Position numbers and translations under genes: made by a program. A stretch of DNA of 64,000 bases from Octopus sinensis (taxonomy: Eukaryota). Below, in pieces: positions 763 to 61,305 of the stretch. Position 1 is the stretch's first letter, and each line of letters starts with the position of its first letter. A model generated the notes under the pieces. That model was not told the origin of the DNA. It saw only the letters and a list, made by a program, of their open reading frames with translations, and did not search any database. The stretch spans positions 248,001 through 312,000 of the forward strand of contig NW_021836134.1 of the NCBI RefSeq assembly GCF_006345805.1. The letters run 5' to 3'.

Positions 763-3719
763 TTAGGAACGGGGTACTGCCACGTTAATGTTCTTCCCAG
801 TCTTCAACACCTTGTACTCACCGGGGGGTCTCTCCAACTCAATTTTTAGGCCTTTCCCCAAACTTTGAAGAAGCTGTTTGTTCTCAGTCGACAACCTGGC
901 CACGGAATCCCCAAAAACGTTCACTTCCTCGACAGTTCTTCTTTCCTCCTTCACAGAGCGAACCAATCGAAGAACCTCTCGGACAATCTCCACTCGCTCA
1001 CATGCCAATTTATCCTCAATACTCCACCCACTCGGCCACTTTTGATAAGCTAAAGGCACGTGCTGTTCCTTTCCGCCATGATAGAGCAACCACTCGCTCA
1101 AAAAGGGCATAAATGGACTCAGCAAGACGAGACAGCACCGACTACACCTGTAAAGACACTGCTCGACTTCCTGGCACTTTCCAACAGCAAGACGCCCTTT
1201 GGACCCCTCCTGACATTAAATAACATGGAAAACCAAATATATTCCGCACAATTCGTTTTGCCACAAATTGCGGATTTCGGCCACAATCAAATGGAAGTCT
1301 CTGTTCGAAAAATGCTCGTCGTAGCAATTTAAAACTTGGGAAACCCGGGAATAAGCCACATCTCCATGTCCTGCTCTGATCCTGTCAACTGAGACAGTCA
1401 AATTAGTCTCCTAACCAGAGGCATTGGAAGGGGTTCAAAATCAGGTGACAATCTCATGTTAATAAATCGAATTGTCTGCCATATTTTGTTGCAAAAATGA
1501 CGAGAAGGAGTAAACATATCTATTCCCAGCTTTATATGAGTTACTACATTAAAAAATTGAATCAACAAATCAATCATTTGAACATAAACGAAAAAAAAAC
1601 CTTTGATGTCGTGAGAACAAAGAGTGAGACGCAACGCATCAGCACCAATTACGTTTCCATGTGTCGGTTTCTTGTGAAATAACCATTTATAGTACCGAAA
1701 TATAATCAAGTGGATCAACCACATTGCCCAAAGATTTACTCATCTTTCTTCCTTTACTATCGCAGACCAATCCATGTAAGACAACTTGTCTAAAGGGCAT
1801 CGTGTCGAGCAGAAGGAGTGACATGAGCATCATTCTGGCCACCCAAAAAAACACAATATCCCCGCCCGTCTCGAGCACTGCCTGAGGGTAATATTGTTTC
1901 AAATATGGGTTGGTCGGCCACCCAAAAACAGAGAAAGGAATTATAGCTGAAGAAAACCACGTATCCAACACATCTTCGTCCTGTTCCATACATTTCAAAT
2001 TATATCGCCAATTTCTGACAATTTTTCGATAATTCGTCTTCAGTTGAAAAAGACGAGCATGCCTCTGCCCCCTAAGACTTACAAAGTGACCCCTAACTTT
2101 ATTTTCTGGTGGTTTTTCCTTAACAAAACAGATTTCCGTCTTCTGTACAGTCTCAAAGAATGTCTCATCAGACGACAAAATTTGGTTTTGGCCTGTTGGG
2201 AAGAACGTGCCACAATCCACTGATCCCCCACTTTATAGGCAGGAATACGATGCCCCCACCAAAGCTGTCGAGAAATGCACCACTCCGGAGATTTGCTGAG
2301 CCACTCCTCCAGAATATTGGCATAAAACGGAGGGACAATGGAGACATGTCCATTCCGTACTCCCTCCAGGACTCTCCGATGTCCCTCCGTGCAATGCATA
2401 TACCACTGCTCCATCCTCACCGTCTCCACCACGTCACCAGAACGGGAACATATTGGAATGTCGTAAGAGTGGTCGTCGAATCCTTCATACAACCCACAAT
2501 CCTTCAAAAATTCAACTAGTCGTCCTCTTGCCTCAAATCTGTCCATTCCCTATCTGTAAACACACTAAATGTACGTCAAACTGAGTATTTGTCCCAAATA
2601 TGGCCCCCGCCTTGTTAATAACAGAGCGTGTTTTGAGGATTTTGTGCTTCATTGCCATTTTATAGTCAACTGGACTATGTGCGGGGGTCAGTTTAAGAGC
2701 TCCACTCCCAAGAGTCATAGAAACGTCCAAATCAGCAATAATAGGCATGTATTGCCCAGTCAACGGGTGTTTGGCTGATCGACCAATAAAACTATTCCAA
2801 CGTGTGTCCTCAGGGTGGACTGCAATGCCAGAATCTCCCAACATTGTTTCCAATCGAGTGGTCGAAACAGTTATTTTCTCCCCACAAGAATCGGCCAGTG
2901 GGTAGGAGAAGTGATGGAGCACTCCAAACTGAGCTTTCTTGCAATTTTTCATTTGTTTGTAGCAATTTTTATCCACTTTCATAAAGTCGAGCTATTTTTA
3001 GTAAATTGAATCAACCTCAATGTCGGAAATGACTGACTGGAGTGCAGGACACCAATTCACAAACCGACTGGCTCGGTGGATTAGTCCCATTTCATAAAGA
3101 CGACAAAATGCTTCACAAACGGCTTCAGTCGACTTCTACAAACATAAAAACACAACTACATCATCCATTGTAAAGTATTTAAAACGCAGATCAAAAGAAC
3201 AACCCAAAAGAGCCAGTTGTTGGTAGATTTGAGTCTCTTTGCTTAAAAATTGGTTAATAAAATAACTTTTCTCGCCATTTTTGCACATTTTCAACAAAGG
3301 CAGTTCTTCCGAGGTCAAAACGGGTTAGTCCTTTGGTTTGAGCGAGGTGTCGTTCGACGACGGTCTGAGTGGCAATTCCTGCGTGGTCACATCCGGGGAC
3401 AAAGAGGGTGTGGTCACTCCCCTCGAAGCGTCTCCTCCTGATCATAACGTCTTGGAGAGTACAGCCTAGGGCGTGTCCCAAATGGAGAGTTCCCGTCACA
3501 TTTGGCGGGGGAGTGCAAATCACATATTTGGGGGAATTGTCCTCAAATAGTGAATTTTACTGTACTTTGGAGACTTGGAAGTGTCCCGAGTCAGTCCACC
3601 ATTTGGATAGGATTCCTTCTATTTTTTGTGGGTCATATTTCGAATGCAAATCGCCTTTTGGGTGTGATGGAACGATTACCTCTAGTGCCGAACACAGAGT
3701 GCAGTCGGCGACTGAACAT
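763..3719 (-). CDS. VARS2: Valyl-tRNA synthetase, probably mitochondrial, with 11 introns
   Basis: Motifs [13 protein letters not shown] (HIGH), [55 protein letters not shown]-terminus [13 protein letters not shown] resembles a presequence. Introns: 3655-3679, 3542-3565, 3242-3266, 3136-3159, 2992-3015, 2550-2574, 2072-2097, 1671-1695, 1544-1600, 1389-1415, 1210-1233. One remaining 1-bp frameshift near 1352 in a short A/T run. Confidence 0.93.
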
Positions 3720-3949
3720 GCCACTTTAATTTATTTAATTTATATTTATTACATTCACAATTATAGTGCTGTATAAACTCCAATGGACAAAAATAATTAT
3801 TAATGTATAGAAACTGTGTTAATATTTGGTCTTGATCAGTTTCTTGTTGCATTCTGACGTTTTTTCTGTCATTTTCCCAGCAACCTTGAAACGCTGTCTA
3901 ACAACTTTTTTTATCTGGCCGTTTAGGCCAAACTGAGGTCAGAAAATAT

Positions 3950-5130
3950 AAGTCTTGCTTTCAATACCTACCGAATGGAGTCCCGCAAGGCTCATTGCTA
4001 TCGCCAGCTCTCTTCAACCTCCATTTAAGTGACGTACCATTCACCAAGAACATCTTACTACTTTCATAAACAAACGACATAATCATTGCATCAAGAGATA
4101 GCAATCTATCAACGGCTACAAACCACTTACAATCTCATCTGGATTCCATTGCTGCTTGGTTTACAACCATTTCACCATCTAAATTGACTGCAACGTTTTT
4201 CATGACGAACAAACGTGAACTCAATCATGAACCCTCATTTTTTGTATTTGGAAGTCGTTTACCCATAACAATAAAACCCAAAATTCTCGGTGCCACTTAT
4301 GATAGATGTCACTTAGGAGTTTCTCTACCCACGTGAATACGATATGTACTAAAGCCAGGCGCAAGCTGAATTCACTACGTGTAGTCTCGGGTTATTTTTT
4401 GGACAAGCCAAGGAAAGCTTAAAGTTGATATACAAACAATTCATTTGAACAATAATGAATTATGCCTCCCCCTGCTGTTACGTCTCGCTAACATTCCTTG
4501 AGAACTTACAATGAGTCCAGAATGTTGGGTTTAGAACGATAACGGAATGTTTAAAATCTTCCCCTATCGATTACCTCCATTGGGAAACAAAAATGCTGCC
4601 TGTCGCTGACCATCTCGAAATCCGTGGACTGAAATTTTGGGATGACTCCACGGCTGCTTATCAACGGTACCCAATCTTTGCAAATCTACCAACAAAAGGC
4701 AAATACGTGCTACCTGTTGAAAATCCCCTTAGGGAACGGAAAAAAAAGATCGGCTCTAATACACGATTTTATCTCCACGACGACCATCCGGAGACTATCA
4801 CTGAACCAAATATTCCAAGAACCTCCCCCGGAAATTGATGAATCAGAATCACTACTGCCAAGAAAGGAACGTGTGACTCTCGCAAGACTTCGCTACGGAC
4901 ATCACCACTGTCTTGGACACGATTTCATGGGGAAAAACCAGACAGAAGGCTCTGTTACGTGTTTAAACTTATATATGATCTCCGTCCATTACTTGTTTTC
5001 TTGTCCTGGATCACCGGTAATTTCGCTACCACGCGCAGCGCTTCGGATCTCCGAGAGCGACCGGTCCAGGCTGTGCGTCGCTAACCGCCGGCTTTTTGCA
5101 TGTCGGCCAGTTCGGGGCTACTAACTAACT
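3950..5130 (+). mobile_element. 5'-truncated, decayed Ingi/I-like LINE (RT C-terminal region to 3' end)
   Basis: Frames read KPKILGATYD, YKQFI*TIMNYASP, RKERVTLARLRYGHH and HYLFSCP. Ends in a tandem ACTA tail at about 5120-5130. Confidence 0.75.
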
Positions 5131-5559
5131 CTTCTGTTATTTTGTACTGATAGTGATAGGGTTGTACGTGGTTTGCCTCAAAAAGAGTCGGTGCTTAGGA
5201 AATGCGATGTCGTATTGTCAAGATATGTCAAGGTAATCTCCATCGAGCATTTCTTACAGTGGTCTTCAATCTTTTATTTGTTTCAGAAACCATTTCCAAA
5301 ATACTAAAGAGCATGATTACAGTGCCATCTCACGACTCCTTTGATTAATCTCCAAAAAATGTACTCCGCGTCATTATCTTACAAACAACCAACAAGGAGA
5401 AAAACAAAAATGACACAGTAATTCAAACAAATAGTATTCCAGAAACGAACTCTCAATTCTTTCCCAAATTACCTCATGTTGCTTTAAAACATGCCGAGAA
5501 CGACGACATCTCGTTAATAAAATGTGCTCAGAAATATAAAAATCTAACGAAAGCAAAGA

Positions 5560-6120
5560 AGCACTGATGTCTGCATAAGGACAGTGACCAACATTTTTAA
5601 ACCTCCGTTTCGTTTTGCCGACTTTGAATAGAACAAATTAACATTTTTATGTTAAAAAGTCTACTTTTACAATTTCCCAGAAATCGCGAATTTCAATTTG
5701 ACCACGTTTTCTCAAAAAATTGCAAGTTGTAGAGAAAAACTATCAGTCAATTTCTCTCTATTTTGCCGAAGGAAAATCTGGCGCGTATTTTACTTTTGGA
5801 CAGACTTGTAGTAGAAAGACACATACGCTTTTTGAAATTGTGGATAGTCCGGGAATATTCTTTCGTTTTACACGAAACTTTGCTAAGGGGTTTATGAGTT
5901 TTTTAACTAATTACATCTCAAGCATTGCTCGATATTGCTAATTCCCTAGGAAGATCGCCAACGAGACTCTTTGGAAAAGATGACGAATTTTGTTGGGATC
6001 CTTGTTTTGTTTTGCAATCTTGGTCCCAGTGAACGAAGAAAGAAATCGATTATGTGCCGATGACCTCGGATGTCGCAACGGCTATTGATAAAATATGTGG
6101 TTTCTGGTCAGGGACGAGTA
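5560..6120 (+). pseudogene. Decayed kinesin motor-domain fragment (possibly kinesin-6-like)
   Basis: REFQFDHVF followed by GKSGAYFTFGQTCSRKTHTL..SPGIF, a degenerate P-loop GxTGSGKTHT. Frameshifts present. Candidate 30-nt intron at 5651-5680. Confidence 0.6.
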
Positions 6121-6744
6121 AAATAATTTTATCATAAATTAATGTTTATAAAAGATCAATAGCTGTTAACTTAAAGAGTAATTCAATTGAATGTAAAAAT
6201 TAAGGAAAATAGCTTTTCTGTTCATTGAAGTATCACTTTAATATCGATTTTTTTAGATTAATGAATGATTTTTATTAATTACACTGTCAAGGTCGATTAT
6301 GAAATAGCTTTAATATTAATTCATGGTCGATAAGGATATATGGCATTTAATTTTAAAGTGAAAATCCTATAATAATTTGAATTTCTTCATCAATAATAAT
6401 TAGGAGCACAATATTGTTAATATTCTTGCTGTCGTTTTGATTAAAATGATAAAAATTTTTAAATACGCTTCTTGACTTGCATCTACGATTGCACTGTACA
6501 TCTCTTGATTATATTTCCAACTTTGTTATTGGATTCAGATTTTTACCATTATGAACAAGTAAAACGGAAATTTTCCGGTTGTGGAATGTATGGTGTTATT
6601 GTAATCAGAAATATCTTTGATTATGGTAAAATATCGGCCAAAATATTCACGAGAAGTACTTGCTGAAGATATCTATCGTTTATGCTTCGGTTGAATCTCA
6701 AAAAAATAAAACCATCGGGCAACTCTTCTGTTTCACCTTCCGTT

Positions 6745-7203
6745 TGTGAGAGCCCCTAGAGATTAGGCTTCGATCTGTACTTTTTTGGCGAGCCATACAC
6801 ACTCAGTTTTCAGAATGGATAATAAGCGAAGTTGAAATAGGTTTCCTCTGGCTCTCGTTTTTGTCCACTTCTGCATTATTATTATTCAACTAAGACCACC
6901 GTCTAAAAAAACACAAAATAACTAATCCGGTGATCTCAGCTTCTCTAAGGAGGGTCCTCATTTTTTCCTGACGTTCTGTGAAGCCCCTAGAGATTAGGCT
7001 TCGATCTGTACTTTTTGGCGAGCCATACACACTCATTTTCAGAATTGATAATAAGCGAAGTTGAAATAGGTTTCTCTGGCTCTCGTTTTTGTCCACTTCT
7101 GCATTATTATTATTCAACTAAGACCACCGTCTAAAAAACACAAATAACTAATCCGGTGATCTCAGCTTCTCTAAGGAGGGTCCTCATTTTTTCCTGACGT
7201 TCT
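6745..7203. repeat. Tandem duplication of an approximately 230-bp unit
   Basis: 6745-6976 and 6977-7203 are nearly identical (agcccctagagattaggc...ttttcctgacgttct). Most differences are homopolymer lengths. Confidence 0.9.
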
Positions 7204-8737
7204 TCCCTTTGACGAGTGGCGAGGCTTGTCCTCTGCCTGCATTTTTGAAAAAAATCTCTGAGTATGATGAGTTTCTTCATACATCTTGTGATTACATCAT
7301 TTGTTTGCTACGAGAATAACATATGGGATTTTGAAATGGTATTTCCACTTCGTTTAAACACAACTTTACTTTTGCTTTTCCGAGTCTGTTTGCTGAGGTA
7401 AGGAGGGTAGTAATCGACTTTCCTGGACTTGTTGATAATCGGTTTACTAGTAACCAGCATTCAAGGCCGTAGGGTAATTTTGCAGCTTTACCGCTGCTGT
7501 TGCGACCTCCCGGATGCGAGAGGCAGCCACAATATTATCCGCATATCACCTTTTGGCATCGGGAGATTCGGTAAGTTGAAAAGAGCTGGTAATAAAGGTG
7601 AGCCTTGAGGTACTGTATTTGGAAATACTTAGAGTTCGACATTTTACTTTTGGTATAGATTCTTCCTCTCCGTTCAGTTAGGAAGTTTGCTATCCATTTT
7701 TTAGGGTGGAGGCGATATTTCTGAGAAATATTTTCCTATTTTAATTTGAGATGAGGACAGGTGTAGCGGAGGTTGAAATGTGGAAATTGCAATAAATATT
7801 CTTAGCCCGTCTTTATGTTTTATAATTTCGGAAATTTGTATTTCTGGTTCTTTTTTGACAAGAGATTTTTTTAATTGTTTTATTTGTGTGAATACTCTGT
7901 CATAGACCATTTTCTCCTTCCTAAGAATACTACTCTTAATTCCCTAGTATAACGGATATCTTTGCCGATTGGTGTCATTATCTGTACGTAGAAGTACAAT
8001 ATCGCCTTCTGATGGTCTATCTTCATCTATTTTTTATTTTCCTTTATTATTCACTTTGATTTGAAGCATGCCGCCCACACTCTGGACACATAGTTAATAA
8101 GGTCCCCATGAACTGCAAACCCGAGACCATAATTTTTGTCTTATGTAGACAGCAGACGGAGATGTTGTATTAGGATAAATCTCGAGCAAGTTATAAGCTT
8201 TGCTGAGTCCTCTGCAGTTTAAAGATCAAAGAGAAAAAGGAGAAATCGGTAAAGAACACGAATAAGACATAATTGCAAGAGAGGTACGTTACGTATGTAT
8301 GACCACCTCATGGATAATAGCTCTTTGGCCAATTGACCGTTCTATACCTGGTTTACTTTTAGCAACCACTTTCCAAGAGGCCAGGTGCCATACGCTGTCA
8401 ACCAAAAAATATACACCGCAAGAGACAATGTTTTTGAAAGGTACATTCTCTTTTTAATGTGCTTCTTTATCATTACTGTTATGTCCTATAAGTTGTTTTC
8501 AATGTGAAAGGTACTTGAAATGGGTACTTCTACCAATAGCCTCTACATCTATCTTTCTTAGATTAGAATACTTGATATTGGCTTGCTATACATCCTTCTC
8601 AAAATAATTTTTATTATGCTCTACCTAGTGAAATAACACTGTTGGATAATTCCCCATGCATTTTATTTTTAAAAGAAACGGTTGAGAACATCATCAACGA
8701 GAATTTTATTAATAAGCACACCGCATAATAACGTTAG

Positions 8738-8946
8738 AATAGTGAGGCAGTTCGAAGGTACCGGATTGGGTTCAATATCACCGGAGAGGGCAAGTGACTC
8801 ATGGAAGAGGCTGAGCGCCACTTCGAGGACATCCAAAAGATCCAATGGGAAGAGTATTGAGGGTCTTTTAGTCGCAGTGAGAAACACAACGTCCGACTTT
8901 CGCCACATGAAGGTGGTCCACAGCCGTATGATAACTAACTAACTAA
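8738..8946 (-). mobile_element. Ingi-type LINE 5' fragment with HDV-like ribozyme core and 2A-like peptide, joined to a plus-strand (ACTA)n tail
   Basis: Minus strand 8860-8917: CCAC-CTTCAT-GTGG-CGAAAGTC-GG-hairpin-CTAA. 8756-8800 encodes ESLALSGDIEPNPVP. The insert is flanked by AATAACGTTAG at 8727-8737 and 8947-8957. Confidence 0.6.
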
Positions 8947-8962
8947 AATAACGTTAGTAGAG

Positions 8963-9380
8963 TTATCTGCCACCCTCTTCTGGACGCGTTTTGTTAATCG
9001 CTTCCAAGTCCATCTGTTCCTCGATAGTTCCCTCAGGTGACCAAGATCGTCTGCTGATTTCAACCCTTTTCCAATCAAAGTTAAATATTGATGCAGGAGG
9101 GTTGCTAGAGTAATTCGAAGTTTGTTCCCGGATGAGGAGCGTAGTGGTGTTCAATTGGAGATTTGCGGGAGTTTTCCTGTCTATTCTTATGATGTGACCA
9201 AATAAGCCTCATCTATTACGGATGTCATTGTAATTGGATAGAGATGTTTGTTTGATATGCGTTTTGGCCAAGGATTCTTAGGATGTATTTCAGACTTGCT
9301 TTTGTTATCAAAGACATTCAAATCCTCTTCATTGGACTTGGATTCTTTTTGATTTCCAATTCTTCCCGAAGTGTCACCTG
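8963..9380 (-). mobile_element. RTE-like LINE 3' fragment
   Basis: Decayed frame IRNR*GLFGHIIRID, typical of the RTE post-RT region. Confidence 0.5.
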
Positions 9381-9599
9381 ACGCTGTTTAAAATGTAATT
9401 ATTTTACTATTTTAATAAAAATTTATACATAAATAAACGACTTTTTCCTTAAAATTATTTTTCTCTTATTTTTTATAATATGTAAAACAAGGTAACAAAA
9501 ATTCGACGACATTTCCCGGACTATTTTGTGCTTTGATTTGGTGTGAAACTAAAGATGTTAAATGTGGTATTCTGTATTGCGACAACTATTTTTCCCATA

Positions 9600-9860
9600 T
9601 TTTATTAACTGGTTGAATTTATAATTGACCTGCAAAGGTCCAAATGTTTCTTATGTGAGAGCATATTATCAACCAGAATATAAATCTTCCAAACTGGAAC
9701 AACACTTTCTAAATAAACATGTTAGAACTAATAGTAGCGGCGATGATTTCGAATATCTAAAAATCCAGAGAACTCGATATGATTGGCAAGTGAATCTTCA
9801 TAACTTAGGCTTAGTATATCTTGATAAACCGATTTTGCTCGCCAATAAGTTAGTAAGCTG
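9600..9860 (+). mobile_element. hAT (Buster-like) transposase N-terminal relic
   Basis: SSKLEQHFLNKH..DFEYL resembles the PSKLxxHLxxKH BED-type motif also seen at 31489-31782. Confidence 0.45.
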
Positions 9861-10400
9861 TTTCTTTCATTTCTTCTTTCATCTTATCTTTCCCAGAATA
9901 TGACTTAATTGACTGTAATACTACTTTATTCCTTGTTTTTGCCTTCTTTTTCAGAAATTATTTATATTGGATTAATAATTCATGAAATAATCTCAAATCC
10001 AACTCTTCTTTGAATATTTTTATTTCGAGTCAAATTATTTTTTTCCAAAACTACCTGTCAGATTTTTTGGATAATTTCACACATTTTTATATACAATTTG
10101 AATGTATTTAACTTATAAATTTTCAAATATTCCCGACTTTTTTTAATTAGAGACAATCCAATCCATGGCTAGCAGCAGGGAGTCCCACTATATTAATACA
10201 ATATTGATATCATTATAGTAGACTGTGACAGACCAAGATAAATGAAATTCTATATTTCCAGTTGCTTTGATGTTATTCGGAAAATCCTTTTATGTCTATA
10301 AAAAACCAAAACAAGAGAAATTGACTCTGACATGCTGTGCAAAATCAAATAATAATTTTATTAGTCAAAATATCAAAGATTTTAAAATAAAATCAAAATT

Positions 10401-10942
10401 TTAAAATTTTAGGTTTTTAGGGTAAATTTTTGATGCTTTTTTAAATTTCATTCTTCTGTTTTGAAACCAAATTTTAATTTGGCGATCAGTTAAATTGAGC
10501 TCAGTCGCCAAATCTGTTCTCCTTTCTTTTGTTAAATATTTTTTCTGACAAAATTCCTTTTCTAATTCTACTATTTGTTTATGCGAATAGCAAGTCCTTG
10601 ATCTTGGTAAATCGTTAAAAAAATTGTTTTTTATTACTTTGAAAAATTTAATTAAATTAAAATACCTGATTTTTTTGTCATCCACGGATACATGGGCACA
10701 TTTGGGACTGTTTCGGAAATACTAGAATCATTTTCTGGAAAATAAAAATCAGTAGTAGTATATTCCGCCAAATTTTGATCCGTATACATATTAAATGGCA
10801 TGTGACTGAAATTTGGATCGTCTGGATAATATGTAGTATATTCATTGTTTATGCCTTCGTAAAAAAATTCAAAATTTGATGATTGGTGAAAGTGAAAGTA
10901 ATCAGGATTTGTGTAATTTTTTTTCACCTGCTTTTTACTCAT
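10401..10942 (-). CDS. Hox-class homeobox gene (170 aa), divergent, with PG3/PG4-like features
   Basis: Hexapeptide VPMYPWM, then a 29-nt intron (10637-10665) at the canonical hexapeptide-homeodomain position. Homeodomain [19 protein letters not shown]...[16 protein letters not shown]. Confidence 0.92.
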
Positions 10943-12589
10943 ATTCAAATTCGATCGAAATTTTTATTTTTAAACTAATTAAAAAATCAAAACAATTAAT
11001 CATAACGCGATCTTTCTCTCAATTATTTTCACGATACGAAATCTTGTACAATGAAAACAATTCTGAATATTTTAAGAAATATAAATCAGTCAATAAAAAC
11101 TCTTACTTGAAAAATGTTGACATTAAAAAAAACTCTTATCGTAGTGAGTATTACACCTAAACTTTTAAATCAAATATACAAACGTCGATCCAAATGCAAA
11201 AGTCTAAACTCTATTGAACAGAAATGTGGTAGTGAACAAGTATTACATAATGAAATATTAAAAATAACTCGGATCAGACAAGTTTTAAATCATTTCTGTA
11301 AATAACCATGGTGATTTTTTAATGAATCGACATATTCTATAACTGAAAATCATATATTAACTAGTATTCGGATTCAGTAGATAGTCTAGAGTTTTAATAA
11401 TTAAAATTTTTTTGCAAATTACATTTTTGGATAAGGACATGCATTCCTGGACATCTAATGTCAAAAAAAGTAAATCATATTCTCAAACGAGCTGAAATTT
11501 GGATTTGGTTTATAAAAATAAAGTGGGATTTACCCTTAATGTTTTTTGTCGATCATTTGAAATGTCCTTTCCGGTAAATCTTCATTTTTTTATTGATTAT
11601 ATAATTTTGTCTTCTTTTCGTCGATTATTATTTTTTGTAAATTTGTTAGCAAAGTGGGAAATATTTTCATGTCTTTAAGCTTTCCAGATTTTTAATAATT
11701 CAAAATATTTGAATGTACACCCAGTTTAAGCAAACCAAGCAATCAAATAAGTTTTTTAGTATTTTTTAACGAGTTTCCTTCATATTGACTGGTTGATTAC
11801 AATTTCTAAATTTCTCAAAGTCCTATCCAGTGACTGTAGGATGTCCCGATGTTCGAGCGTATTGGAGTTTATGCAAGCCAATTCTATTTTTCAAAAAAAG
11901 AATGCAGTATGAACATTGAATAAGGAGAGTTTTCTTATAACTATAAAAAGTTCCTTTTTTTTCTAGTAAATTGCTCACTATTCCTTTTCGCCAAGTGGGC
12001 ACCCAAGAAAGTATGCCCTCTCCCGAGGTAAGACAGTAATCCCGAGTAATATCAAATTGAAAGACTTGACCACGTTTATAAAATCACTCTCCGACTATGT
12101 GATATTTATTAGCTTCGATTTCTTTATATTTATATCGAGTCCGAGTTTTCTTAGTAACGGAAGCCAGACGTCTAGCTGCAGAAATCCGAACAGATCTCGG
12201 GATCTTGAGTAAAATATTTTTGGCCTTCTATTGCTCAAACAAGAAAATCAAAAGAGATTCCTTATTGTCAAAATCCAACGGCTCATTGGATTCAGCAGGC
12301 TCATTCGGAATGTTCGCCTACGTCTTCCGACCAAATCCCATAATGCATTGCAGTTCCATAAACTGAGTGAGGATACAGCCTGATGGGACATTCTTACATA
12401 TCCGAGGTGGAAAAAGTTCTCGCACATGTTCTTCCATCTTGGAGACGTTTTCTATGTACTCTATTTGTTCGATGAGTATTTGTTCATTCTTCAGTCTTTT
12501 TCAAGATAAATTTTAGATGAAATTTTGCCCTAAAGACAACCGCAGTATTTAATTACAAATATACTTTTCGTTTTGTTACACGCTATTTA

Positions 12590-13600
12590 TGCACTGAATT
12601 CCGCCCTCTCCGTCCTCTGAAGTCTGGTTATAAGAAAGTAAATAACTCACATAGACAATTCTTTGGGGTCCCTTCCAGTCATTGACTACAAACAAATATC
12701 AGTCAAGGCTGGCAATGAAGGCAATGGGGGTCTAGTCTTCAAGTCATTCTCCGGAAATTCTCATCATGTGATCCTTGAAGGTGCCATGTTCTATATTGAG
12801 TCCTTTAATCGCATCCTTCGATTATATGCTGTCGAAAATGGGGTCGACGGCGGAATTAGCAATTGTTTTGGCGGCAGCGGGAAACATTTGATAATCTCAG
12901 TACCATTTTTTTGTATTGTTCAAAAGATCCCCCAAAACACTATCGTTTGGCAGTGTGGAAAAATTTTGACGGAATTAAATCGAGAAGACCACTTTTTATT
13001 GCCGCCCATGGAAAAGGTGGCGGGAACGGGAACCGCGCTATTCGTTCTTCAGTGACCAGGATTCCGAATTTGGCGGTATATGGAGGGGTCCGCGAAGCTT
13101 TTTGATTTCGAGCTTGAACTTAAGTTTATGGCAGATGTTAGTTTGGTTTGTCATCTTTATTGATTTGAGTAAGATTGGCTTCCCAAACGCGGGAAAATCT
13201 AGTTTTTTAAACCCAATTTCCCGAGAAAAGTCACGTGTCTTCTCCATTCCGTTCACGACTCTGATACTTCAGGTCGGAGTATTTGAGTTTGAGGATTACC
13301 GTCAAATTACCTTCCGCATTTGTGAAGGACTCCTTAGTTGATAGAGGTCTTGGATTTGATTTTTTGAGACAAATTGAACGGTGTCGTGGTATGGTGTTTG
13401 TCTTTGACCTTTCTCTCGATTTAAGGTGCGAGTTGGAGGACTTTAAAGAGAAACTGAATCGTTTTTTATGGTTTGCAATAAGTCGATTTACAAGATGCAA
13501 ATAAGAGATTTAATGATTTTGTTTGTCTGAGGACACTCTACTGACGCTTGTGGCTGTCTCTGTCAAATTTGCTGATTTTCTGACTAAATTACGCTCTAAA
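12590..13600 (+). pseudogene. Obg-family GTPase (GTPBP10/MTG2-like), unprocessed pseudogene
   Basis: IDYKQISVKAGNEGNGG, GKGGGNGN, ADVSL/IGFPNAGKSS across a 28-nt intron (13146-13173), PFTTL, GLGFDFLRQIERC. Several frameshifts and deletions. Confidence 0.8.
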
Positions 13601-14929
13601 GTCTTTTCTTAATAAAATTTAGTGAAATATGCGTATTAAAGAGTACTATTATTCTGATTGAAATCATATTTCGTTTCAACAATACTTTAATGACGTATTA
13701 ATCAACTATTTTAAAATCAACATTATTGGAACAGGTTATTGAGAGTATCAAGGAGGCAATTGCTATGCTATTTACAAGGTTAGTCAGCAATAGAGGGATA
13801 TGGTACCCTAATGTATGAAGGGAGTGAAAATGAGTAGTGAAAAAAAATTAGTGTATAGAATTATGATATTTCATATTTTTGCAAAACATCCAAAAGAGTG
13901 ATAATTTTATCTCGTGAAACATTAGAATTCTGTTCGATAAATTGGACCACCAAAACATGAAATTTAAATATTACAAAATTAATATCGGAAGAGACGTCCT
14001 TCATTCGTGCCTCGAATTTGGTGGTCATATTGGACAAATACTGGTAACGAAGTTTCTTCCGATTCCTGCATTCCCCAGCTTTGCCAGACCTCATTCCAAT
14101 ATTCCGACACTTTTTTTCATTTTAATATTATTTTGGCGTCGATATAATCTCATTGATTAGATTACTGAAATAGACAATCAAAAGTTTCCTTACTGCAATT
14201 ATTACACCAGTAGAACAACTAAAGTATAAGAAAAGATACAAATAAGGATCAGTAAATTAACAATCCATCCAGTTAACCAAAAGGGATTAATTAAGTCAAT
14301 CTCTTATAATCATTAGCGTCAAATCTTCTAAACAACAGAACAGACAGAGTATCGTTCTTTGAGGATTCCCTCAAGTCAACGTGGTGGGTTTCCCCTTTGA
14401 TGATGATTACGTAAATCCCCTCACTGTCCTGTCCATAGAAACCGTCTCCACGGATTCATGTTTTATTACTGAAAATAATGTTACTAAATGAGAACAAATC
14501 ACGAACGCTCGTTGCCACTGGAATAAACCTCCGTCGTGGGGTCACTCTATATCCTGACTTTACTACTGTTATACTTCATTAGCAAGAAAATATTGTCCAC
14601 ACTCTTCCTCAAACACATTGACAGATCCATCTCAGTAAAACTCAGTCAGATTACCCCTGGTACCCCAGGGAACCAAGTCTATTGAGCCATAAATGTCCGC
14701 AAATATAGACCAAGTAAATGCTTCTCAGTCTTATTACAATGCCCATGACAGAATATTCTTGCTAATCATTTCATAAATTTTGTTTAATAAATTGGTGGTT
14801 TTCTTGAATTACATCAAACAGCAAAAATCTCAACCTAACAAACAATATGAAATAATAAGGAAATAAAAACATGAAAATGAGTTATTAGACCATTAGTAAA
14901 ATCAAATAAGCATCAGTTTCTTGAAGTGA

Positions 14930-15460
14930 GCCAACCACATAGCCCTCGCAGGTCAACTCGTTGTTTTCACTGACCAACACTTAAAATCGAAACTTCAGAG
15001 GCTGGAATCGATTGTCCAGGCAAGTCGTAACTTGTTTCCCCAAATTGAGCTTTGGAATGTATAGATTCCATCCACATTGTTGAAGAACTGTCACTGAGGA
15101 CAATAATTAAATGTATTTGTGCTAGAGGAACTTTCCAGTCCATCCGTCCTTGATAATGTGCACATCTTTTGGAGTGTACTTGGAAAACACTTCAGCCAAA
15201 CTCGCACTCGACATGCCCTTTGACACAGGTTCCAAAAACAGTTTCTTTTGGGATGGCCATTTAAACCATGTTCCCTGGAAAGTAGTTCTAGAGCTCCGAA
15301 GTGTTTTTAGACGTGAATAATAGTTCGCACGTCCGTCTTCAATCGAAAAATCATTATTATTCGACAATCCCTTTCTCATGCCGGAATGAGAAAATCCACA
15401 CTTCCATGAAGACGATTGCAATTTTCAATTACCACCAACCTTCCACGTAGTATGTAGTCA
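14930..15460 (-). mobile_element. Merlin (IS1595-like) transposase relic
   Basis: LFLEPV...IIKDGW region homologous to the element at 37899-38960. Confidence 0.55.
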
Positions 15461-15544
15461 TTTCAATTCTCTTTGTTCGGCACAATATTTTCTCGATTTA
15501 TTTTATTATTATTAAAAAACACTTTTACAGAACCAAAGAACGTT

Positions 15545-27030: not shown

Positions 27031-29608
<2,578 letters not shown>

Positions 29609-49520: not shown

Positions 49521-51191
49521 CAGTAAAACCTCTCGAATCCGCCGATTTTGGGACCGACCAAAAAATCGGCGGATTCGAGAGGCAATTTAAATAATATTTT
49601 ATAGTTGAAACATGAACTTACAATATAGATTAAGTATTTCTTTTTATATACAGATGACTGAATACATAAAATTATTTATATTCAAAAAAATCAGAAATTT
49701 TATTTTTTTTAATTAATTTTCTTAACATTTCCCCAATTCGCATAATATTTTCATGATCATCTATATCTGCATTTACCTGAGAAGCATAAGTTTTAATAAT
49801 CTCTAGAGCTCTGAAAGCTTCTGAGAAAACAACTTTTTTCTCATTTGATTCCTCTTCAATAATTGTTTCCTAAGTATGATTATTAAATAAAATCACTAAC
49901 TGATTGAACTTTTTTTGACTGTAATGTACCAGCTTGTTCAGATTTGTCTAAAAATTCCATTAGCTCTTCATTTTCAGTATATCCGTAATCAACAAATTCA
50001 CTATAAGATATTGGATCGTCAATTTGAAATTTCTTAATTATTTCTTCATAATTATTTTCGTAGTTCTTAGATTCACTGTTGATTGTGATTGTTTCACATT
50101 TTATCCATTGTGCATGACGGAAACAATTTTTGATGGTCGTAGGAGTAACTTTATTCCAAGCGAAGAATGTGAATGTCGCAGCAGTTTTAAGGGTGATTCC
50201 ATTAATTGCATTCTGAAGAGCCACTTGTTAAAAATGTCACGGTTCATCCATGCCTTATTGGAATGGGTGTAGGTAACATATTTTCCAATGTTGAAATTTT
50301 TAAAACACCTTGGACTTTTGAATCTTCCTATCATTACAGGCCTTCTTTTATCGGAACCAAAACAATTTGCGCATAATAGTAAAGAAAATCGATCCTTCGA
50401 CAACTTTATTCCAGGCCGTGATTTAGTGCACACACTTTTAGAAGGAATCGGCTTGTAAAAAACACCAGTTTCATCTGCATTATAAACATTGTCCAATCCA
50501 TATTGTTCCATTTTTAAACTCATTGTTTCATTAAAATCAGTAATAGATTTTTCATCATGATTTACTGATCCACTGTCTCCGTGAAATTTTCTTAACTTGA
50601 TACCATTTCGTAATTTAAACTTTTCTAGCCACCCACGACTTGGTTTAAATTCTGTAAAATTTTTTCCAAATTTAAGAGCTTTTGTAATTAACATCGAATC
50701 TGATAGAATTGCTCCACTAGATTCATTAAGTTAATCCATGTTATCATCGCTACATCAATTTCATTAAATTTGAGTTTTGGAATTCTCGTTATGTTTAATT
50801 TTTTGATGTCAGTCCTATTCAAAAGGTCAGATTTTGATTTAAGGTCGTTTATAGTTCTCGGAGAAATTTTCTTTTTTAACCGTGAAGAAAAAATCCTGGA
50901 AATTTGAGGTGCAGAAACGAATGGGTTGTCAGAAATATAATTTAGTATAGAAATTTTTTCGTTGATAGAAAGTCTAACACAACGACGCATCACAAAAATA
51001 CAATTTAACGTGTAATGGGAATTTTAAAATGTTAATTAATTTAACTTACAATTAGATAAAAAATTATTTTTCATAATACTTGAGGAGCGGATTCGAGAAA
51101 CAAGCGGATTCAAGAATCATTCATAGGAAATTTCAAATTTTTGATTAAAACAAGCGGATTCGAGAAGCGGCGGATTCGAGAGATTTCACTG
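49521..51191 (-). mobile_element. pogo/Tigger element with both TIRs
   Basis: TA|CAGTAAAACCTCTCGAATCCGC and GCGGATTCGAGAGATTTCACTG|TA. SRGWLEKFKLR, NADETG, NKAWMN. Internal deletion in the DDE region. Confidence 0.92.
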
Positions 51192-56830: not shown

Positions 56831-56904
56831 ATTAAATTTATGCTTTCTCGAAAGTGCTCTTAATAATATTAATAATAAACGCAGATAGCGATATTTTCTT
56901 TTCT

Positions 56905-57646
56905 ATGCCACACCTACGATTCATAACCATAGAGGAAGACTGGTAACACAAACGCGTTGATAAGTCTTATCTTCGTCTTTGGACATACATCCTGCTATTC
57001 CAGATTCGATTCAGTTTTATTATCGTACTTCTGCACAAGGCTATGCGTCTATTGATTTTGAGACAAAACCATCATCTCTAGTTATCAGACTAAACAGAAA
57101 GATATTGCTTTCGGGACATTCTATTTCCTCGTTATTAACAAAAATTCTTATTTTTCAGATAGTCAAGTTGCAATTATTTTGGTTTTTCCACATTTAGAAA
57201 AAGACTAAATGTGGACTTTTCTTTACTTCAAAATCATCTATAATTTTAGTTTTATATTTGCTATTAATTAAATTGTTGCCAAGCAATGAGTATGCTATCA
57301 AAAGAAGAACAAGGTGGATTATACGTGACCATTTGTAGACATTTTTGACTGTCTGAGAGAACTTAGGGAACAATTTAAACAACTCTCCGTGGACTCACTA
57401 TTTCAGTCATCACCCACCAACAACCAAATAGACAAATCGAGGATTGAAGAATTAAGGCAAGAGAATGAAGCGCTGCTTAGTCATTTATCGTTAACCAAAG
57501 TACTCACGTTTATAGTTTTGTAGGAAAAAATGAATTCATTCTTACAGTCGGATACTCAAAATGTTTCCCGACCTACAAAGAAACAAGTTAGAGAATGCAA
57601 AAAGCGAATAAATCTTCCATTCGTGGCAGGAAAAGTTGTATTCTAA
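56905..57646 (+). CDS. Intron-rich gene for a coiled-coil protein; 5' structure uncertain
   Basis: Introns 57314-57338 (25 nt) and 57500-57523 (24 nt) give an open frame MSMLSKEEQDIFDCLRELREQFKQL..RIEELRQENEALL..RINLPFVAGKVVF*. More GT..AG micro-introns lie upstream but could not be phased uniquely. Confidence 0.55.
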
Positions 57647-58389
57647 TGATATTGGCAGTCAGTACAGCACAGTCATTCAGTGAGTGCTAATATACAACAA
57701 TTCATGCATTCAATGCGACAAAGAAGCAACTTATCTGACAAAAGACAACGAGGAAAAAATATAATTAAAATGATTAAATAAACGCGTTTTGTACATTCTC
57801 TCAGAAGAGGTCTGTAAAATATAGGAAATGTAAACAAACATAAACAACAGGGCAAAAACATTGCCACATATTAATCCTGTCTTTTCTAAATAATTATTTT
57901 GGGATAATAAAATTTGAATTAATAATTTTACACAGAAAAGAGATTTCTGTAGTTCAGCCCGGCCTCGTTGTGGTTATATCGATATATTAAAATAAAATGA
58001 GTATTTAAATGAGGGTCAATTAGACCTTTATTTTCAATCTGGCTTAGTTTAACCTGAGGAAAGTTAGGTTTTAGATTTGAATGAAAAGAAATTAAAAACG
58101 AAACATTCAAAACACTTTCTGAAAAAGTTTCTTCTCTATTCCACTTTTTAAAGTTATAGCAATGATTCGAAAATCTAATAAATTTAAGTATATAAACACA
58201 TAATATGAAATGACAAGAAATGAAAGTCATAATTTATCAGACAACTTAAAAAATAAACAAATATGTAAATAAAATAATTTTAAAAACACTATATTAAAGG
58301 ACTACTAATTAGCATAATATTATAATAATAATATTAATAATAAATAATAAAATATAGAGTGTTGTGTGATGTGTACAATAACACCGGAG

Positions 58390-59286
58390 ATGGCAGCGAG
58401 GACTCTGTTAGTTCTTGTTGATTAAAAATTAGGTACTTTGGGAACCTACCTGGCTGTATTGACGAAAACTTAATAATAATGCTGATTACTCGTTTCGAGG
58501 TGAATTGTGTGTCCTGCAAATTGATTCGAGAAGTATCGGACGACCCATATTGCTTTGTCGAATTCTGCAGTCGAGAAGACGGAGAATATGTGATGGCCCA
58601 ATTAAGCAATATTGAATTATACGGCAAGAAAATACGAGTAAAATGGGCAGCCGTGCCAAACAAGCAAGACACAAGCAGTAATGAACTATTCTTCACCCAC
58701 AGAACACTTTCACATATTCGTGGGGGATATCAGTCCAGATATCGACAACGAAGCACTCCGTAGGGCATTTGCTCAGTTCGGGGAGATATCGTAATGGAGG
58801 TGTGACATGGCAGGGACTGCAAGGTCGTGGTTGATCCAGTCACACAAGTTTCGAAGGGATATGGGTTCATCTCCTTCATTCACGAAGAGGATGCTTCCCG
58901 TGCTATTCTCCAAATGAATTCTCAGTGGCTTGGGAGTCGGCCAATTAGGACTAATTGGGCCTCACGGAAAGTGTGTCCCACAAAGGACCGTTCTTATAGA
59001 CAAATATCAGCTCAGACAACTCAGACTAATTCGACTGTCTATGTGGGGGGACTGCCTCCTGGACTTGTTTCGGAAGACACTCTTAGAGCTGTTTTTTCCC
59101 ATTTTGGGCAGATTCTTACAATTAGAGTTTTTGTCCAAAAGGGATATGCTTTTATTCAGTTGTATTTGGTGTTTTGATGGCAGATTTGATCGGAAGGAGA
59201 GTGCTGTTCAGGCTATTCATTCTGCACATTCACTTTCCATTGGTGGCTTTCCTCTCAGGTGTTCTTGGGGAAAGGAGTTTTATTAA
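58390..59286 (+). CDS. TIA1: TIA1/TIAR RNA-binding protein, three RRMs, 265 aa
   Basis: RTLYFGNL, DPYCFVEF, HFHIFVGD, SKGYGFISF, WLGSRPIRTNWA, TVYVGG, KGYAFI, CSWGKE. Introns 58407-58432, 58678-58702, 58791-58813, 59159-59183. Confidence 0.93.
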
Positions 59287-59680
59287 CATTTATTAACTTT
59301 GCATGTACCTATACGATATGAGTTATGTGAATTAAAGTAGTGAGGAAATAGGCTTGTTTGTACTTAGTCAATACTGGTTTTTAGTTTATTAGACTTATTG
59401 GTTTATAAAGATAGGTGGATTGTTTTGGAATAGAATGACTAAGTAGACTAATAAAAAGCGATATACAACTGGAGAGCCAATGCCACTGATTGGGAGTAAC
59501 TACATATAATTATGACAAGATTAGAAGATTACACATACTTTTAAGATTAGAAGATTACATTCTGATAACTTATCAGAATACTATGTAAGGTAGGAATTAC
59601 CACATAAGACAATTTTGCGAATAGGCGTATAAAAAAGTTATGCCACTACAGACAATACACAAACGACAGATGGAAAAACC

Positions 59681-59727
59681 GGTGGCCGAATAACAAAGCT
59701 TTCCTGGGTTCGAATCCCAAGACCACA
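59681..59727 (+). pseudogene. tRNA-like remnant (A box, T arm/B box, no anticodon arm)
   Basis: TGGCCGAAT, then TGGG-TTCGAAT-CCCA at 59705-59719, followed by TTTT. Confidence 0.35.
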
Positions 59728-59766
59728 ACTTTTAAGAATTTAAATTTAAAAAACGAAAAAAGTAAT

Positions 59767-60287
59767 TTAAAGTTGGAATTTAGTCTTGGAATGAACATCG
59801 TCAATGATAGAAGCAATACTCTCGTCAGATAATTTATCAGAAAGACTGACATATCAAAAACACAGAAACCTCGGAATCAGCGCTTTGGCCTGAGAGACTG
59901 TAGAAGGGGCCAAATTAGCCAACTGAGCTCGCTCGAATTTATGCAATTCAGGTTTCCCCAAGGCTCTACTCATTCAGAGATCCCCGATAACCTGCGGACA
60001 GCACTGACTGTTTCCTTTGTCTTGAAGCGACTGAATAAATTGCAGTAATCGAGTGTAGATCGGAAGACTTCGGAGGTCTCGAGAGCATCGTCGTCCTGGT
60101 TATTGGCATCTTCACTGAAGGAGTATAAAGACAAGTCATACCGATGTTGTAAGAGGATCCTTACTTCTGAAATTAAGATTGTTTCGGCGTCTTCAAAGTC
60201 TATGTTTGTTAGGAGAGTTAAATTTTATATAAAACCGTCGGTAAAGCATAAATAATCGCTATTTTCTTCTTGTTCGGGTGGCCTCAT
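59767..60287 (-). CDS. POLR2D: RNA polymerase II subunit RPB4, 135 aa
   Basis: Spliced protein DFEDAETILISEVRILLQHR..SEVFRSTLDYCNLFSRFKTKETVSAVR..LHKFERAQLANL..AKALIPSL..IIDDVHSK. Introns 60200-60235, 60115-60141, 59966-59991, 59846-59869. Confidence 0.93.
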
Positions 60288-60602
60288 AAGAATCAAAACT
60301 ATTTATTTATTTATTTAATTTAATAATGTTATAATTATTTAAATTAAGTAATATTTGTATTATTAATTTAATTAAATAATTTAAAAATTACATTTATATT
60401 AATAGGAAATTATTATTTAAACGATCATGTATTTTGTTATTATAACATGAAAATATTAAATTTAAAAAATCAAGTTTTTTTAATTTTTTCAATTATTATC
60501 TAATATTTAAATGGTTATTAAATTATTTAAAAATTAAATTTATTTGTTTTAATTATTTAATCTTGTGGTGTTTATTCAATTTACAAAGTCAGCCACCCAA
60601 AC
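60288..60602. promoter_or_regulatory. Putative bidirectional promoter between POLR2D and GABPA
   Basis: 315 bp of extremely AT-rich DNA between two divergent start codons. Confidence 0.5.
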
Positions 60603-61305
60603 ATGTACAACTCAGAGGAGTGCTCAGAACTGGTTGCGAATTCTCCCAAAAAAAGACAGAATAAAGAACAACTACAATGTTTGGTGGACATTGATCGTCC
60701 GATATATACAATTCTATCCCTCCTTCGAAGTGAGACTGGTCACCCCCTGAAAGACTATTCTATCCACGTCCAAGACGCCCTGATTGTACTAAAATTTTAA
60801 TTTATCTAAGAATGACACAAATTCGGCAGTCTCCTCTCTTTGTGTGAACCACAATGGGCCAGTCGAAGTGCTGGTCGAAGTTCAGCATGGTTTTATTATT
60901 TATAAATAACTCAGAATTGAGATCTGTAAACGTTTTGGACGTTGTTTCAGTGAGGCAGAACAGAGGAGTGCAGTTGTGGCAGTTTTTGTTGGATATGCTG
61001 ACAGACTATCGATGTTTGGAGGTCATTCGGTGGGTGGGGGACAACGGAGAGTTCAAATTAGTCAATCCTGAGGTGGTTGCTCATTTGTGGGGGGTCAGGA
61101 AGAACAGAGGAACTATGACTTATAGCAAACTGAGTCGTGCTTTGCGTTATTACTATCAAGGGGACATGCTTGCTAAGGTTGGTCTTTCTATTTTTATGTT
61201 TAGGTCACTGGGAAGAGGTTTGTTTATAGATTTGTGTGTGATTTGAAGACAGTTGTGGGGTATTCTTCTGCTGAGTTAAGTCTTCTTGTTAATTCTGTTG
61301 AATAA
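60603..61305 (+). CDS. GABPA: ETS transcription factor GABP-alpha, 208 aa
   Basis: OST-like N-terminal domain (VDIDRPI..LL..YSIHVQD..VNVLDVV). ETS domain [35 protein letters not shown]-type tail [22 protein letters not shown]. Introns 60786-60810, 60890-60914, 61178-61203. Confidence 0.92.

What the first reader, a model, noticed from the sequence alone, without database searches (positions are those of the whole stretch)
763..61305. Ultrashort-intron splicing: size-constrained introns with eroded splice signals
Seen: of 23 introns placed in five conserved genes (ValRS, Hox, TIA1, POLR2D, GABPA), 21 are 23-29 nt; the others are 36 and 57 nt. Donor position +3 is T in 13 of 23, +5 G occurs in only 5 of 23, and 6 of 23 acceptors are RAG (five AAG, one GAG at 3542). 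No consistent branch-point motif or pyrimidine tract is visible. Known: typical animal spliceosomes need much longer introns, and introns this short are reported from dicyemids. Inference: introns are defined by GT..AG plus a length ruler and AT content, which implies a remodelled spliceosome.
Basis: partly seen in the sequence, partly recalled or inferred. Interest (0 to 1): 0.75.

Follow-up and report, generated by a model that had tools for sequence, protein, structure and literature searches.

The report
Dicyemid micro-introns, nearly standard spliceosome
This DNA very likely comes from a dicyemid, a tiny parasite whose sequence is mixed into a host genome assembly; its 23-29-base introns are of a size already known for these animals, and they are likely removed by an almost ordinary spliceosome using a faint branch signal about eight bases before the intron end, although one of its RNAs (U1) has a shrunken end hairpin.

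Summary
Observation confirmed, phenomenon already published. All 23 introns and every count were reproduced; public contigs of close relatives (run type unrecorded) support 18 of 23. The contig very likely belongs to Dicyema: it shares repeats (up to 99.5%) and composition with a contig whose Pax6 is 391/408 identical to D. acuticephalum, not with host DNA. Introns of 24-27 nt with eroded signals are in print for dicyemids (2007-2026), and this scan noted the dicyemid origin before on other DNA. Length plus AT content does not suffice (64 true against 419 decoy pairs; a 57-nt intron is removed whole; 21 of 101 introns are under 65% AT). A weak TNAY branch motif peaks 8 nt from the end and replicated in a second set. 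The splice-site-reading parts of U1, U2, U5 and U6 are canonical, and U2AF65, SF1, U1-70K, U1-C, SNRNP27, METTL16 and PRP8 are present. New lead: U1 stem-loop 4 is cut to about 6 bp with a variable loop; its partner SF3A1 was not found (inconclusive).

The parts
763..3719 (-). ValRS gene, 11 coding-region introns; one-base frame break near 1350 in the assembly
   Evidence: Pfam, spliced profile alignment, contigs spanning 731-3771, translation
3655..3679 (-). ValRS intron, 25 nt, AAG acceptor
   Evidence: gap total 147; frame
3542..3565 (-). ValRS intron, 24 nt, GAG acceptor
3242..3266 (-). ValRS intron, 25 nt, AAG acceptor
3136..3159 (-). ValRS intron, 24 nt
2992..3015 (-). ValRS intron, 24 nt
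2550..2574 (-). ValRS intron, 25 nt
2072..2097 (-). ValRS intron, 26 nt (alternative placement 2065-2090)
   Evidence: gap total 51 = 25 + 26; candidates
1671..1695 (-). ValRS intron, 25 nt, AAG acceptor
1544..1600 (-). ValRS intron, 57 nt; no inner AG; unused inner GT 23 nt from the end
   Evidence: listed joint 1543 to 1601 in X3 and X5
1389..1415 (-). ValRS intron, 27 nt
   Evidence: gap total 52, net 50 = 24 + 27 removed, one base put in; placement inferred
1210..1233 (-). ValRS intron, 24 nt
10401..10942 (-). Hox-like homeobox gene with YPWM motif
   Evidence: Pfam Homeodomain; translation
10637..10665 (-). Hox intron, 29 nt, AAG acceptor
   Evidence: reading frame only
58390..59286 (+). 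TIA1-like three-RRM gene
58407..58432 (+). TIA1 intron, 26 nt
   Evidence: reading frame only
58678..58702 (+). TIA1 intron, 25 nt
   Evidence: gap in X5
58791..58813 (+). TIA1 intron, 23 nt
   Evidence: gap in X5
59159..59183 (+). TIA1 intron, 25 nt
   Evidence: reading frame only
59767..60287 (-). POLR2D/RPB4 gene
   Evidence: Pfam RNA_pol_Rpb4; translation
60200..60235 (-). RPB4 intron, 36 nt, no inner AG or GT
   Evidence: reading frame only
60115..60141 (-). RPB4 intron, 27 nt
   Evidence: gap in X4
59966..59991 (-). RPB4 intron, 26 nt
   Evidence: loose end at 59992 in X3 continues in the next exon; frame
59846..59869 (-). RPB4 intron, 24 nt
   Evidence: reading frame only
60603..61305 (+). 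GABPA-like Ets gene
   Evidence: Pfam Ets, weak GABP-alpha; translation
60786..60810 (+). GABPA intron, 25 nt, AAG acceptor
   Evidence: gap in X3
60890..60914 (+). GABPA intron, 25 nt
   Evidence: gap in X3, X4, X5, X6, two studies
61178..61203 (+). GABPA intron, 26 nt
   Evidence: gap in X3, X4, X5, two studies

Best explanation
These are 21-57-base GT-AG introns (median 26) of a parasite that is very likely Dicyema acuticephalum or a near relative, and they are likely removed by a conventional major spliceosome that reads several weak cues together rather than by a ruler and a rebuilt machine. Likely steps: U1, whose 5' end is canonical, pairs mainly with the exon-side AG and the GT(A/T) start; SF1, U2AF65 and then U2 find a degenerate TNAY branch site whose A lies most often 8 bases (range about 7-13) from the intron end; the first usable AG some 7 or more bases after the branch is taken, AGs closer to it being passed over. 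The size floor near 21-23 would follow from a minimal donor-to-branch loop of about 13-15 bases plus that 8-base tail; the ceiling is soft. Selection appears to have purged competing sites nearby. Shown: boundaries, lengths, motif statistics, snRNA and protein genes. Inferred: the branch nucleotide, order of assembly, cause of the floor.
For: Organism: Pax6 on G000:C9061 is 391/408 identical to D. acuticephalum Pax6 and has 7 introns of 23-30 nt; C9061 shares repeats with the window's contig at up to 99.5% and tetranucleotide correlation 0.997, against about 0.80 for host loci; a second, 1667-nt 18S lies on a contig sharing a 1.5-kb element at 99%. Cues in 70 introns: -2 A 40, -1 G 40, +3 A/T 65, +5 G 13, -3 G 1. 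TNAY with A at -13..-7: 53 of 70 against 32.7-32.9 in dinucleotide shuffles (none of 500 or 1000 reach it), no excess in the 5' part (30 against 32.8), and 21 of 31 against 12.7 in a second set (P 0.001); exactly at -8: 16 against 5.4 and 11 against 2.2. No AG ends 8-13 nt before the intron end in 70 introns (9.7 expected); non-GAG AG 1 against 5.1 in the second set. Exonic GT within 6 nt upstream of donors: 2 against 9.8. Canonical U1 5' end (15 places), U2 branch-pairing region (15), U5 loop I (11), U6 ACAGAGA (3), U4 (3). U2AF65, SF1, U1-70K, U1-C, SNRNP27, METTL16, PRP8 present.
Against: No lariat or raw-read data; the laid runs are contigs of unrecorded kind from relatives, not this individual. 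The motif zone was chosen after seeing the first 70 introns and six patterns were tried; the second set was placed mostly by reading frame. Plain AG exclusion did not replicate there (5 against 7.2, P 0.2); only the later non-GAG form did (P 0.02). 17 of 70 introns lack TNAY in the zone. All cues together still rank only 54 true introns among the top 69, so something is missing. The U1 and U2 patterns presupposed canonical sequences, so variant copies with changed reading regions are not excluded. U2AF35 was not sought; SF3A1 was not found. The species link runs through shared repeats and composition, not through a gene of this window.
Confidence: 0.62

Rival explanations
1. Peripheral remodelling enables the short size: U1 stem-loop 4 has shrunk because the usual U1-U2 bridge to SF3A1 is lost or replaced, and U1 and U2 would act one after the other on introns too short to hold both. 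Compatible with the cues of the best explanation, but makes the machine change causal.
For: U1 is about 146 nt against 164 in the host; stem-loop 4 is a 6-pair hairpin with one compensated pair and a loop that varies among copies. U5 is 103-106 against 123-125 nt, U6 100 against 107 with a short 5' hairpin. SF3A1 gave only host hits in two genome searches. Human SF3A1-UBL reads the UUCG loop and stem of the 24-nt hairpin (PMC8833184, passages).
Against: The searches match exon by exon and can miss a gene cut by many introns, and the parasite assembly may be incomplete. Yeast lacks both this hairpin and the UBL without such introns. No comparison with other fast-evolving animals was made; the trimming may be general decay.
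Confidence: 0.18
2. One reading: introns are defined only by GT..AG, a fixed length ruler and AT content, with a spliceosome rebuilt where it reads splice sites.
For: 90 of 101 introns are 21-30 nt; length plus AT/T content ranks 45 true among the top 69; +4 to +6 carry near-zero information.
Against: At 23-31 nt there are 64 true and 419 decoy pairs, at AT of 0.7 or more still 49 and 54; a model without length does about as well (44 of 69). The 57-nt intron is skipped whole. 21 of 101 introns are under 65% AT. Reading regions of four snRNAs are canonical.
Confidence: 0.1
3. Recognition is sloppy and accuracy comes afterwards: mis-spliced or retained introns are removed by nonsense-mediated decay, as recalled for Paramecium.
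For: Among introns of 3n length 3 of 21 lack an in-frame stop, against 18 of 49 others; known cues leave many decoys.
Against: Not significant (P 0.09; 0.17 with one likely overlooked stop-free 27-nt PRP8 intron); stop-free 3n introns are the ones homology misses. All listed gaps at window introns were the expected junctions.
Confidence: 0.08
4. The segments are not introns but assembly errors, frameshifts or DNA differences between strains.
For: The assembly has at least one single-base break in ValRS; the laid runs are not on record as RNA.
Against: Six of six listed gaps end in GT..AG; 40 PRP8 and 7 Pax6 segments restore conserved proteins; 7 Pax6 introns were shown by cDNA and genomic cloning in D. 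acuticephalum (PMC2222250, passages).
Confidence: 0.02

Closest known systems
Dicyemid micro-introns (D. acuticephalum PMC2222250, PMC2483917; Dicyema sp. PMC6543705; D. japonicum PMC6736024, PMC13644364)
   Same: Same animal group, probably the same species as PMC2222250 (mean 26.2 nt, 7 Pax6 introns); medians 24-27 nt; donor reduced to GT(a), acceptor to AG; weak A residues before the AG proposed as branch site.
   Different: Here the branch cue resolves as TNAY peaking at -8 (PMC2483917 saw no branch signature in 41 introns); +3 T is about as common as A; the five dicyemid snRNAs and seven splicing proteins are located, which my searches did not find in print.
Myxobolid myxozoan introns (PMC13644364)
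   Same: Medians 22-27 nt, eroded signals, conserved U2 branch-pairing region and U2AF; judged compatible with conventional splicing.
   Different: Independent origin in cnidarians; U1, U5 and U6 were not covered in the text I read.
Stentor coeruleus 15-16 nt introns (PMC9505925)
   Same: Canonical U1 5' end, U2 GUAGUA and U6 ACAGAGA with tiny introns; branch A close to the 3' end.
   Different: Stentor lengths are nearly fixed, with the branch A at position 10-11; dicyemid lengths spread over 21-57 nt and the branch position is looser.
Spliceosomes with co-evolved or lost snRNAs (Entamoeba, bioRxiv 10.1101/2022.06.08.495308, listing only; reduced spliceosomes, PMC10158995, passages)
   Same: Transformed splice signals in a reduced or parasitic lineage.
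   Different: No change in the reading regions and no loss of U1 snRNP here; only peripheral trimming.

Membership tests
Major (U2-type) spliceosomal introns | GT (rarely GC)..AG ends | tested here: met
   23 of 23 in the window; 69 GT-AG and 1 GC-AG among 70
Major (U2-type) spliceosomal introns | Removed exactly from transcripts | tested here: met
   18 of 23 supported by contigs of relatives (8 singly, 10 by gap totals); run kind unrecorded
Major (U2-type) spliceosomal introns | Branch-site motif able to pair with U2 | tested here: met
   TNAY excess at -13..-7 in two sets; statistical only
Major (U2-type) spliceosomal introns | Lariat formed at that adenosine | not testable with these tools
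   needs lariat sequencing
Major (U2-type) spliceosomal introns | Polypyrimidine tract | tested here: inconclusive
   T 0.55 at -7..-3 against 0.42-0.43 further upstream; C not raised
Major (U2-type) spliceosomal introns | U1, U2, U4, U5, U6 in the same organism | tested here: met
   U1 scores 42-63 bits, under Rfam's 69.5 cut-off, E 2e-13 at best
Dicyemid micro-introns | Organism is a dicyemid | tested here: met
   Pax6 391/408 to D. acuticephalum on a contig tied by repeats and composition
Dicyemid micro-introns | Median length 24-27 nt, most under 30 | tested here: met
   median 26; 90 of 101 are 21-30 nt
Dicyemid micro-introns | Donor reduced to GT(a), acceptor to AG | tested here: met
   5 of 101 donors are GTRAG; residual -2 A, -1 G, +3 A/T, -3 not G
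Remodelled spliceosome with changed reading RNAs | Altered U1 5' end, U2 branch-pairing region, U5 loop I or U6 ACAGAGA | tested here: not met
   all canonical in the copies found; U1 and U2 patterns could not see altered variants
Remodelled spliceosome with changed reading RNAs | Loss of U1 snRNP proteins, U2AF65, SF1, METTL16 or SNRNP27 | tested here: not met
   all found with conserved domains
Remodelled spliceosome with changed reading RNAs | Loss of the SF3A1-UBL bridge to U1 stem-loop 4 | tested here: inconclusive
   hairpin cut to 6 pairs; no parasite SF3A1 hit
Remodelled spliceosome with changed reading RNAs | Loss or change of U2AF35, SF3B, Smu1/RED, branching factors | not tested
Minor (U12-type) introns | Long invariant donor and branch motifs, U11/U12 snRNAs | tested here: not met
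   donor +4 to +12 carry near-zero information; U11/U12 not searched

The most novel reading that the evidence does not exclude
Dicyemids splice 25-nt introns with canonical catalytic and reading RNAs but have dismantled the U1-U2 bridge: U1 stem-loop 4 is cut to a 6-pair stub without a fixed UUCG loop and SF3A1 has lost or changed its ubiquitin-like domain, so that U1 and U2 act in turn, with a TNAY branch 8 nt from the end fixing the acceptor. It would be a natural animal solution to the minimal-intron problem, testable by convergence in myxobolids.
Probability: 0.18. Interest if true: 0.68.

Novelty: already known. Interest (0 to 1): 0.3.

Why it matters
The headline is published, so it would not surprise a specialist. 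What is useful: PMC13644364 ends by asking how such introns are recognised, and this work gives testable specifics for a dicyemid: a branch position, an acceptor rule, coordinates for all five snRNAs and seven splicing proteins, and one structural oddity (U1 stem-loop 4). The assembly also holds large contigs (up to 959 kb among those fetched) of a Dicyema species, a resource for intron studies and a source of false host genes.

Tried and rejected
No RNA holder listed by the run search; runs X7 and X8 covered little; no laid cover for the Hox intron. ValRS homologue search gave no close relative (best 47-56%), so it could not place the organism. U1 hunt: the Rfam search returned host copies and a host pseudogene on C9998; patterns assuming the usual loop I gave chance or host-repeat matches. 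The U2 Rfam search was filled by host copies. SF3A1: two genome searches and tblastn of all fetched loci (1.3 Mb, host loci included) found host copies only. Placements dropped before counting: three ValRS calls of the aligner (109, 40 and 41 nt) replaced after the gap totals; five weak Pax6b calls; a 17-nt U1-70K call replaced by 23 nt; one METTL16 and one U2AF65 intron left out as unsure; a likely 27-nt PRP8 intron not among the 70. A suspected assembly error in RPB4 was my miscount. No compensation between exon-side and intron-side donor matches (rho 0.06) or between AT content and U1 match (rho -0.05); +5 G is slightly commoner in GC-richer introns (P 0.048). The Pax6 tree groups C9061 with D. 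acuticephalum at 93/60, below the starred level; identity is the stronger evidence. Dicyemid 18S primers were not in the passages read. Ogino 2010 is not held.
Full report
Observation. I placed introns with a spliced profile aligner of my own with flat length cost, by reading frame, and with laid contigs. The result is the same set of 23 and the same counts: 21 of 23-29 nt, one of 36, one of 57; +3 T 13, +5 G 5, five AAG and one GAG acceptor.

Transcript-like support. The run search listed 10 runs, none on record as RNA. Four runs of unrecorded kind, from two studies, laid on 58200-61500 show six gaps of 23-27 nt; each can be placed as GT..AG, and a loose end joins across 59991-59966. On 600-16000, a contig of X5 spans ValRS from 731 to 3771; the 57-nt joint is listed in X3 and X5 (one study), and gap totals of 147, 51 and 52 (net 50) equal the other ten introns plus one base that the assembly lacks. 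The single gap rows were cut from that output, so these ten rest on sums. That these contigs are RNA is my inference from the exact GT..AG gaps; they differ from the window by 1-5%, so they come from relatives. Five introns rest on frame alone.

Organism. The window lies on a 399-kb contig of a 2.72-Gb assembly. Two kinds of 18S are present: about 2.6 kb, mostly on chromosome-scale contigs, and 1667 nt on C1618. C1618 shares a 1.5-kb element at 99% with the window's contig, whereas the host loci share nothing with it and carry 2.1% microsatellites against 0.09%. A Pax6 on C9061 is identical to Dicyema acuticephalum Pax6 at 391 of 408 aligned residues, with seven introns of 23-30 nt. C9061 shares repeats with the window's contig at up to 99.5% and has tetranucleotide correlation 0.997 with it, host loci about 0.80. 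Single-copy splicing genes were each found once outside the host chromosomes, which suggests one parasite species. Dicyemids live in cephalopod renal organs (PMC12953835, abstract start and passages); I did not determine the host. I reached this placement before consulting the scan's notes, several of which say the same for other pieces.

What is in print. PMC2222250 (passages): 16 D. acuticephalum introns, mean 26.2 nt, seven in Pax6. PMC2483917 (passages): weakest known donor score and no branch signature in 41 introns. PMC6543705 (passages): median 27 nt; it cites Ogino 2010, which I could not read. PMC6736024 (passages): mean 38 nt, 49% repeats. PMC13644364 (parts 1 and 2 of 3 of the text; supplement passages; logos are figures and were not visible): D. 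japonicum median 24 nt, donor reduced to GTa, acceptor to AG, weak A residues proposed as branch site; U2 and U2AF examined in myxozoans. The finding as worded is therefore known.

Cues. I pooled 70 introns: the 23, 40 from the parasite PRP8 (71% identical to a small profile; introns 23-38 nt, one GC-AG) and 7 from Pax6. Information sits at -2 A (40), -1 G (40), +3 A/T (65) and -3 (T 44, C 12, A 13, G 1); +4 to +6 are near background. No AG ends 8-13 nt before the intron end (9.7 expected), while ten AGs 3-7 nt before it are passed over. TNAY with its A at -13..-7 occurs in 53 of 70 against about 33 in dinucleotide shuffles, with no excess in the 5' part. Since that zone was chosen after the fact, I made a second set of 31 introns from U1-70K (five by profile, two by frame), SF1, SNRNP27, U1-C, METTL16, U2AF65 and a second Pax6 (by frame or weak homology): TNAY 21 against 12.7, and exactly at -8, 11 against 2.2; plain AG exclusion did not replicate (5 against 7.2), four of the five being GAG. 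This fits the weak A residues of PMC13644364 and gives them a shape that can pair with U2.

Ruler and AT test. Among 2127 GT..AG pairs of 18-60 nt in seven genes, 69 are true. Cross-validated ranking finds 9 true among the top 69 by length alone, 45 with AT/T content, 51 with edge bases, 54 with the AG zone, and 44 without length (features were chosen on the same data, so these are optimistic). The 57-nt ValRS intron has no inner AG and an inner GT that would give 23 nt, yet it is skipped whole in the relatives. Ten of eleven introns of 31 nt or more have no inner AG beyond position 5. U1-70K and METTL16 introns are 42-63% AT, several with GTGAGT donors. Length is thus a soft prior and AT content is not required. 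Stop-free 3n introns are few (3 of 21 against 18 of 49) but not significantly so.

Machinery. On contigs that share DNA with the window's contig and, beyond the RNA gene itself, not with host loci (the SF1 stretch shared nothing with either and is assigned by its short introns): U6, three identical copies, canonical ACAGAGA and catalytic core, short 5' hairpin; U5, 11 places, canonical loop I; U4, three; U2, 15 of 89 pattern matches, six fetched, canonical branch-pairing region; U1, 15 of 69 matches, one on the window's own contig at C12605:377004. U1 scores under Rfam's cut-off (best 62.6 bits, E 2e-13): its 5' end is canonical, loop I has diverged, and stem-loop 4 is a 6-pair hairpin with a loop that varies among copies; 8 of 44 predicted pairs show double changes. 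U2AF65, SF1, U1-70K, U1-C, SNRNP27, METTL16 and PRP8 are present with their conserved domains. SF3A1, which binds stem-loop 4 in humans (PMC8833184, passages; PMC4233244, listing), gave host hits only; that is weak, since the search works exon by exon. Stentor likewise keeps canonical reading regions with 15-16 nt introns (PMC9505925, passages).

Novelty. A search for dicyem and snRNA gave two papers, neither describing dicyemid snRNAs in what I read; a search on truncated U1 stem-loop IV with short introns gave two, one read in passages without such a case; a search on dicyemid DNA in cephalopod assemblies gave none. Subscription papers and other papers' supplements were not seen and may hold these points.

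Verdict. Real, and a known property of dicyemids. The best reading is a conventional spliceosome working from summed weak cues with a branch near -8 (0.62); a causal role of the trimmed U1 hairpin is the open lead (0.18). Interest 0.3.

Noticed in passing
window 58547-61853 and G000:C12605:322385-325678: The TIA1-RPB4-GABPA block is duplicated at 96% about 13 kb past the end of the first copy; the copy lacks the TIA1 start and has a GC donor in RPB4 intron 1; the ten shared introns keep their lengths.
   Followed up: partly
window about 1350: ValRS has a one-base frame break in the assembly that two laid contigs do not share; probably a consensus error in a low-coverage contig.
   Followed up: partly
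window 3724-3758: 24 unexplained gap letters in X5 point to a further intron in the ValRS 5' UTR (candidates 29 or 35 nt).
   Followed up: partly
window 12546-13450: An Obg-family GTPase gene differs by about 10% from the laid contigs and has several 1-2 base indels: likely a decayed duplicate.
   Followed up: partly
window 13847-14681: An unnamed transcribed gene: laid contigs cover it with 100 and 33 gap letters, so likely more short introns; no Pfam match in the two frames tested.
   Followed up: no
window 5702-5941: Kinesin motor fragment next to a 238-bp tandem duplication at 6142-6604.
   Followed up: no
window 17000-57000: Dense mobile DNA: reverse transcriptase ORFs at 20008-21534 and 34666-35802, DDE transposases at 27929-28880, 44010-44588 and 50101-50730; 39% of the window repeats elsewhere in the contig.
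   Followed up: no
L095 4786-5880 (G000:C12762): A second, strongly diverged Pax6-like gene with short introns at the same positions; PMC6543705 lists one Pax4/6 per dicyemid.
   Followed up: partly
L109 6101-8400 (G000:C1618): The parasite 18S gene is followed after about 200 bases by a broken histone H3-like reading frame (name recalled); Rfam finds no 5.8S or 28S on this 16.5-kb contig.
   Followed up: no
L143-L156, L083: Parasite U1 genes fall into two sequence groups with compensated stem changes; loop I differs from the usual U1-70K site while U1-70K itself is conserved.
   Followed up: partly
L127, L128: U4 lies about 1.9 kb from a 5S rRNA gene on two parasite contigs.
   Followed up: no
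window 10401-10942: The Hox-like gene keeps YPWM with a divergent homeodomain, resembling the unclassified dicyemid HOXL group described in PMC6543705; not tested by tree.
   Followed up: no
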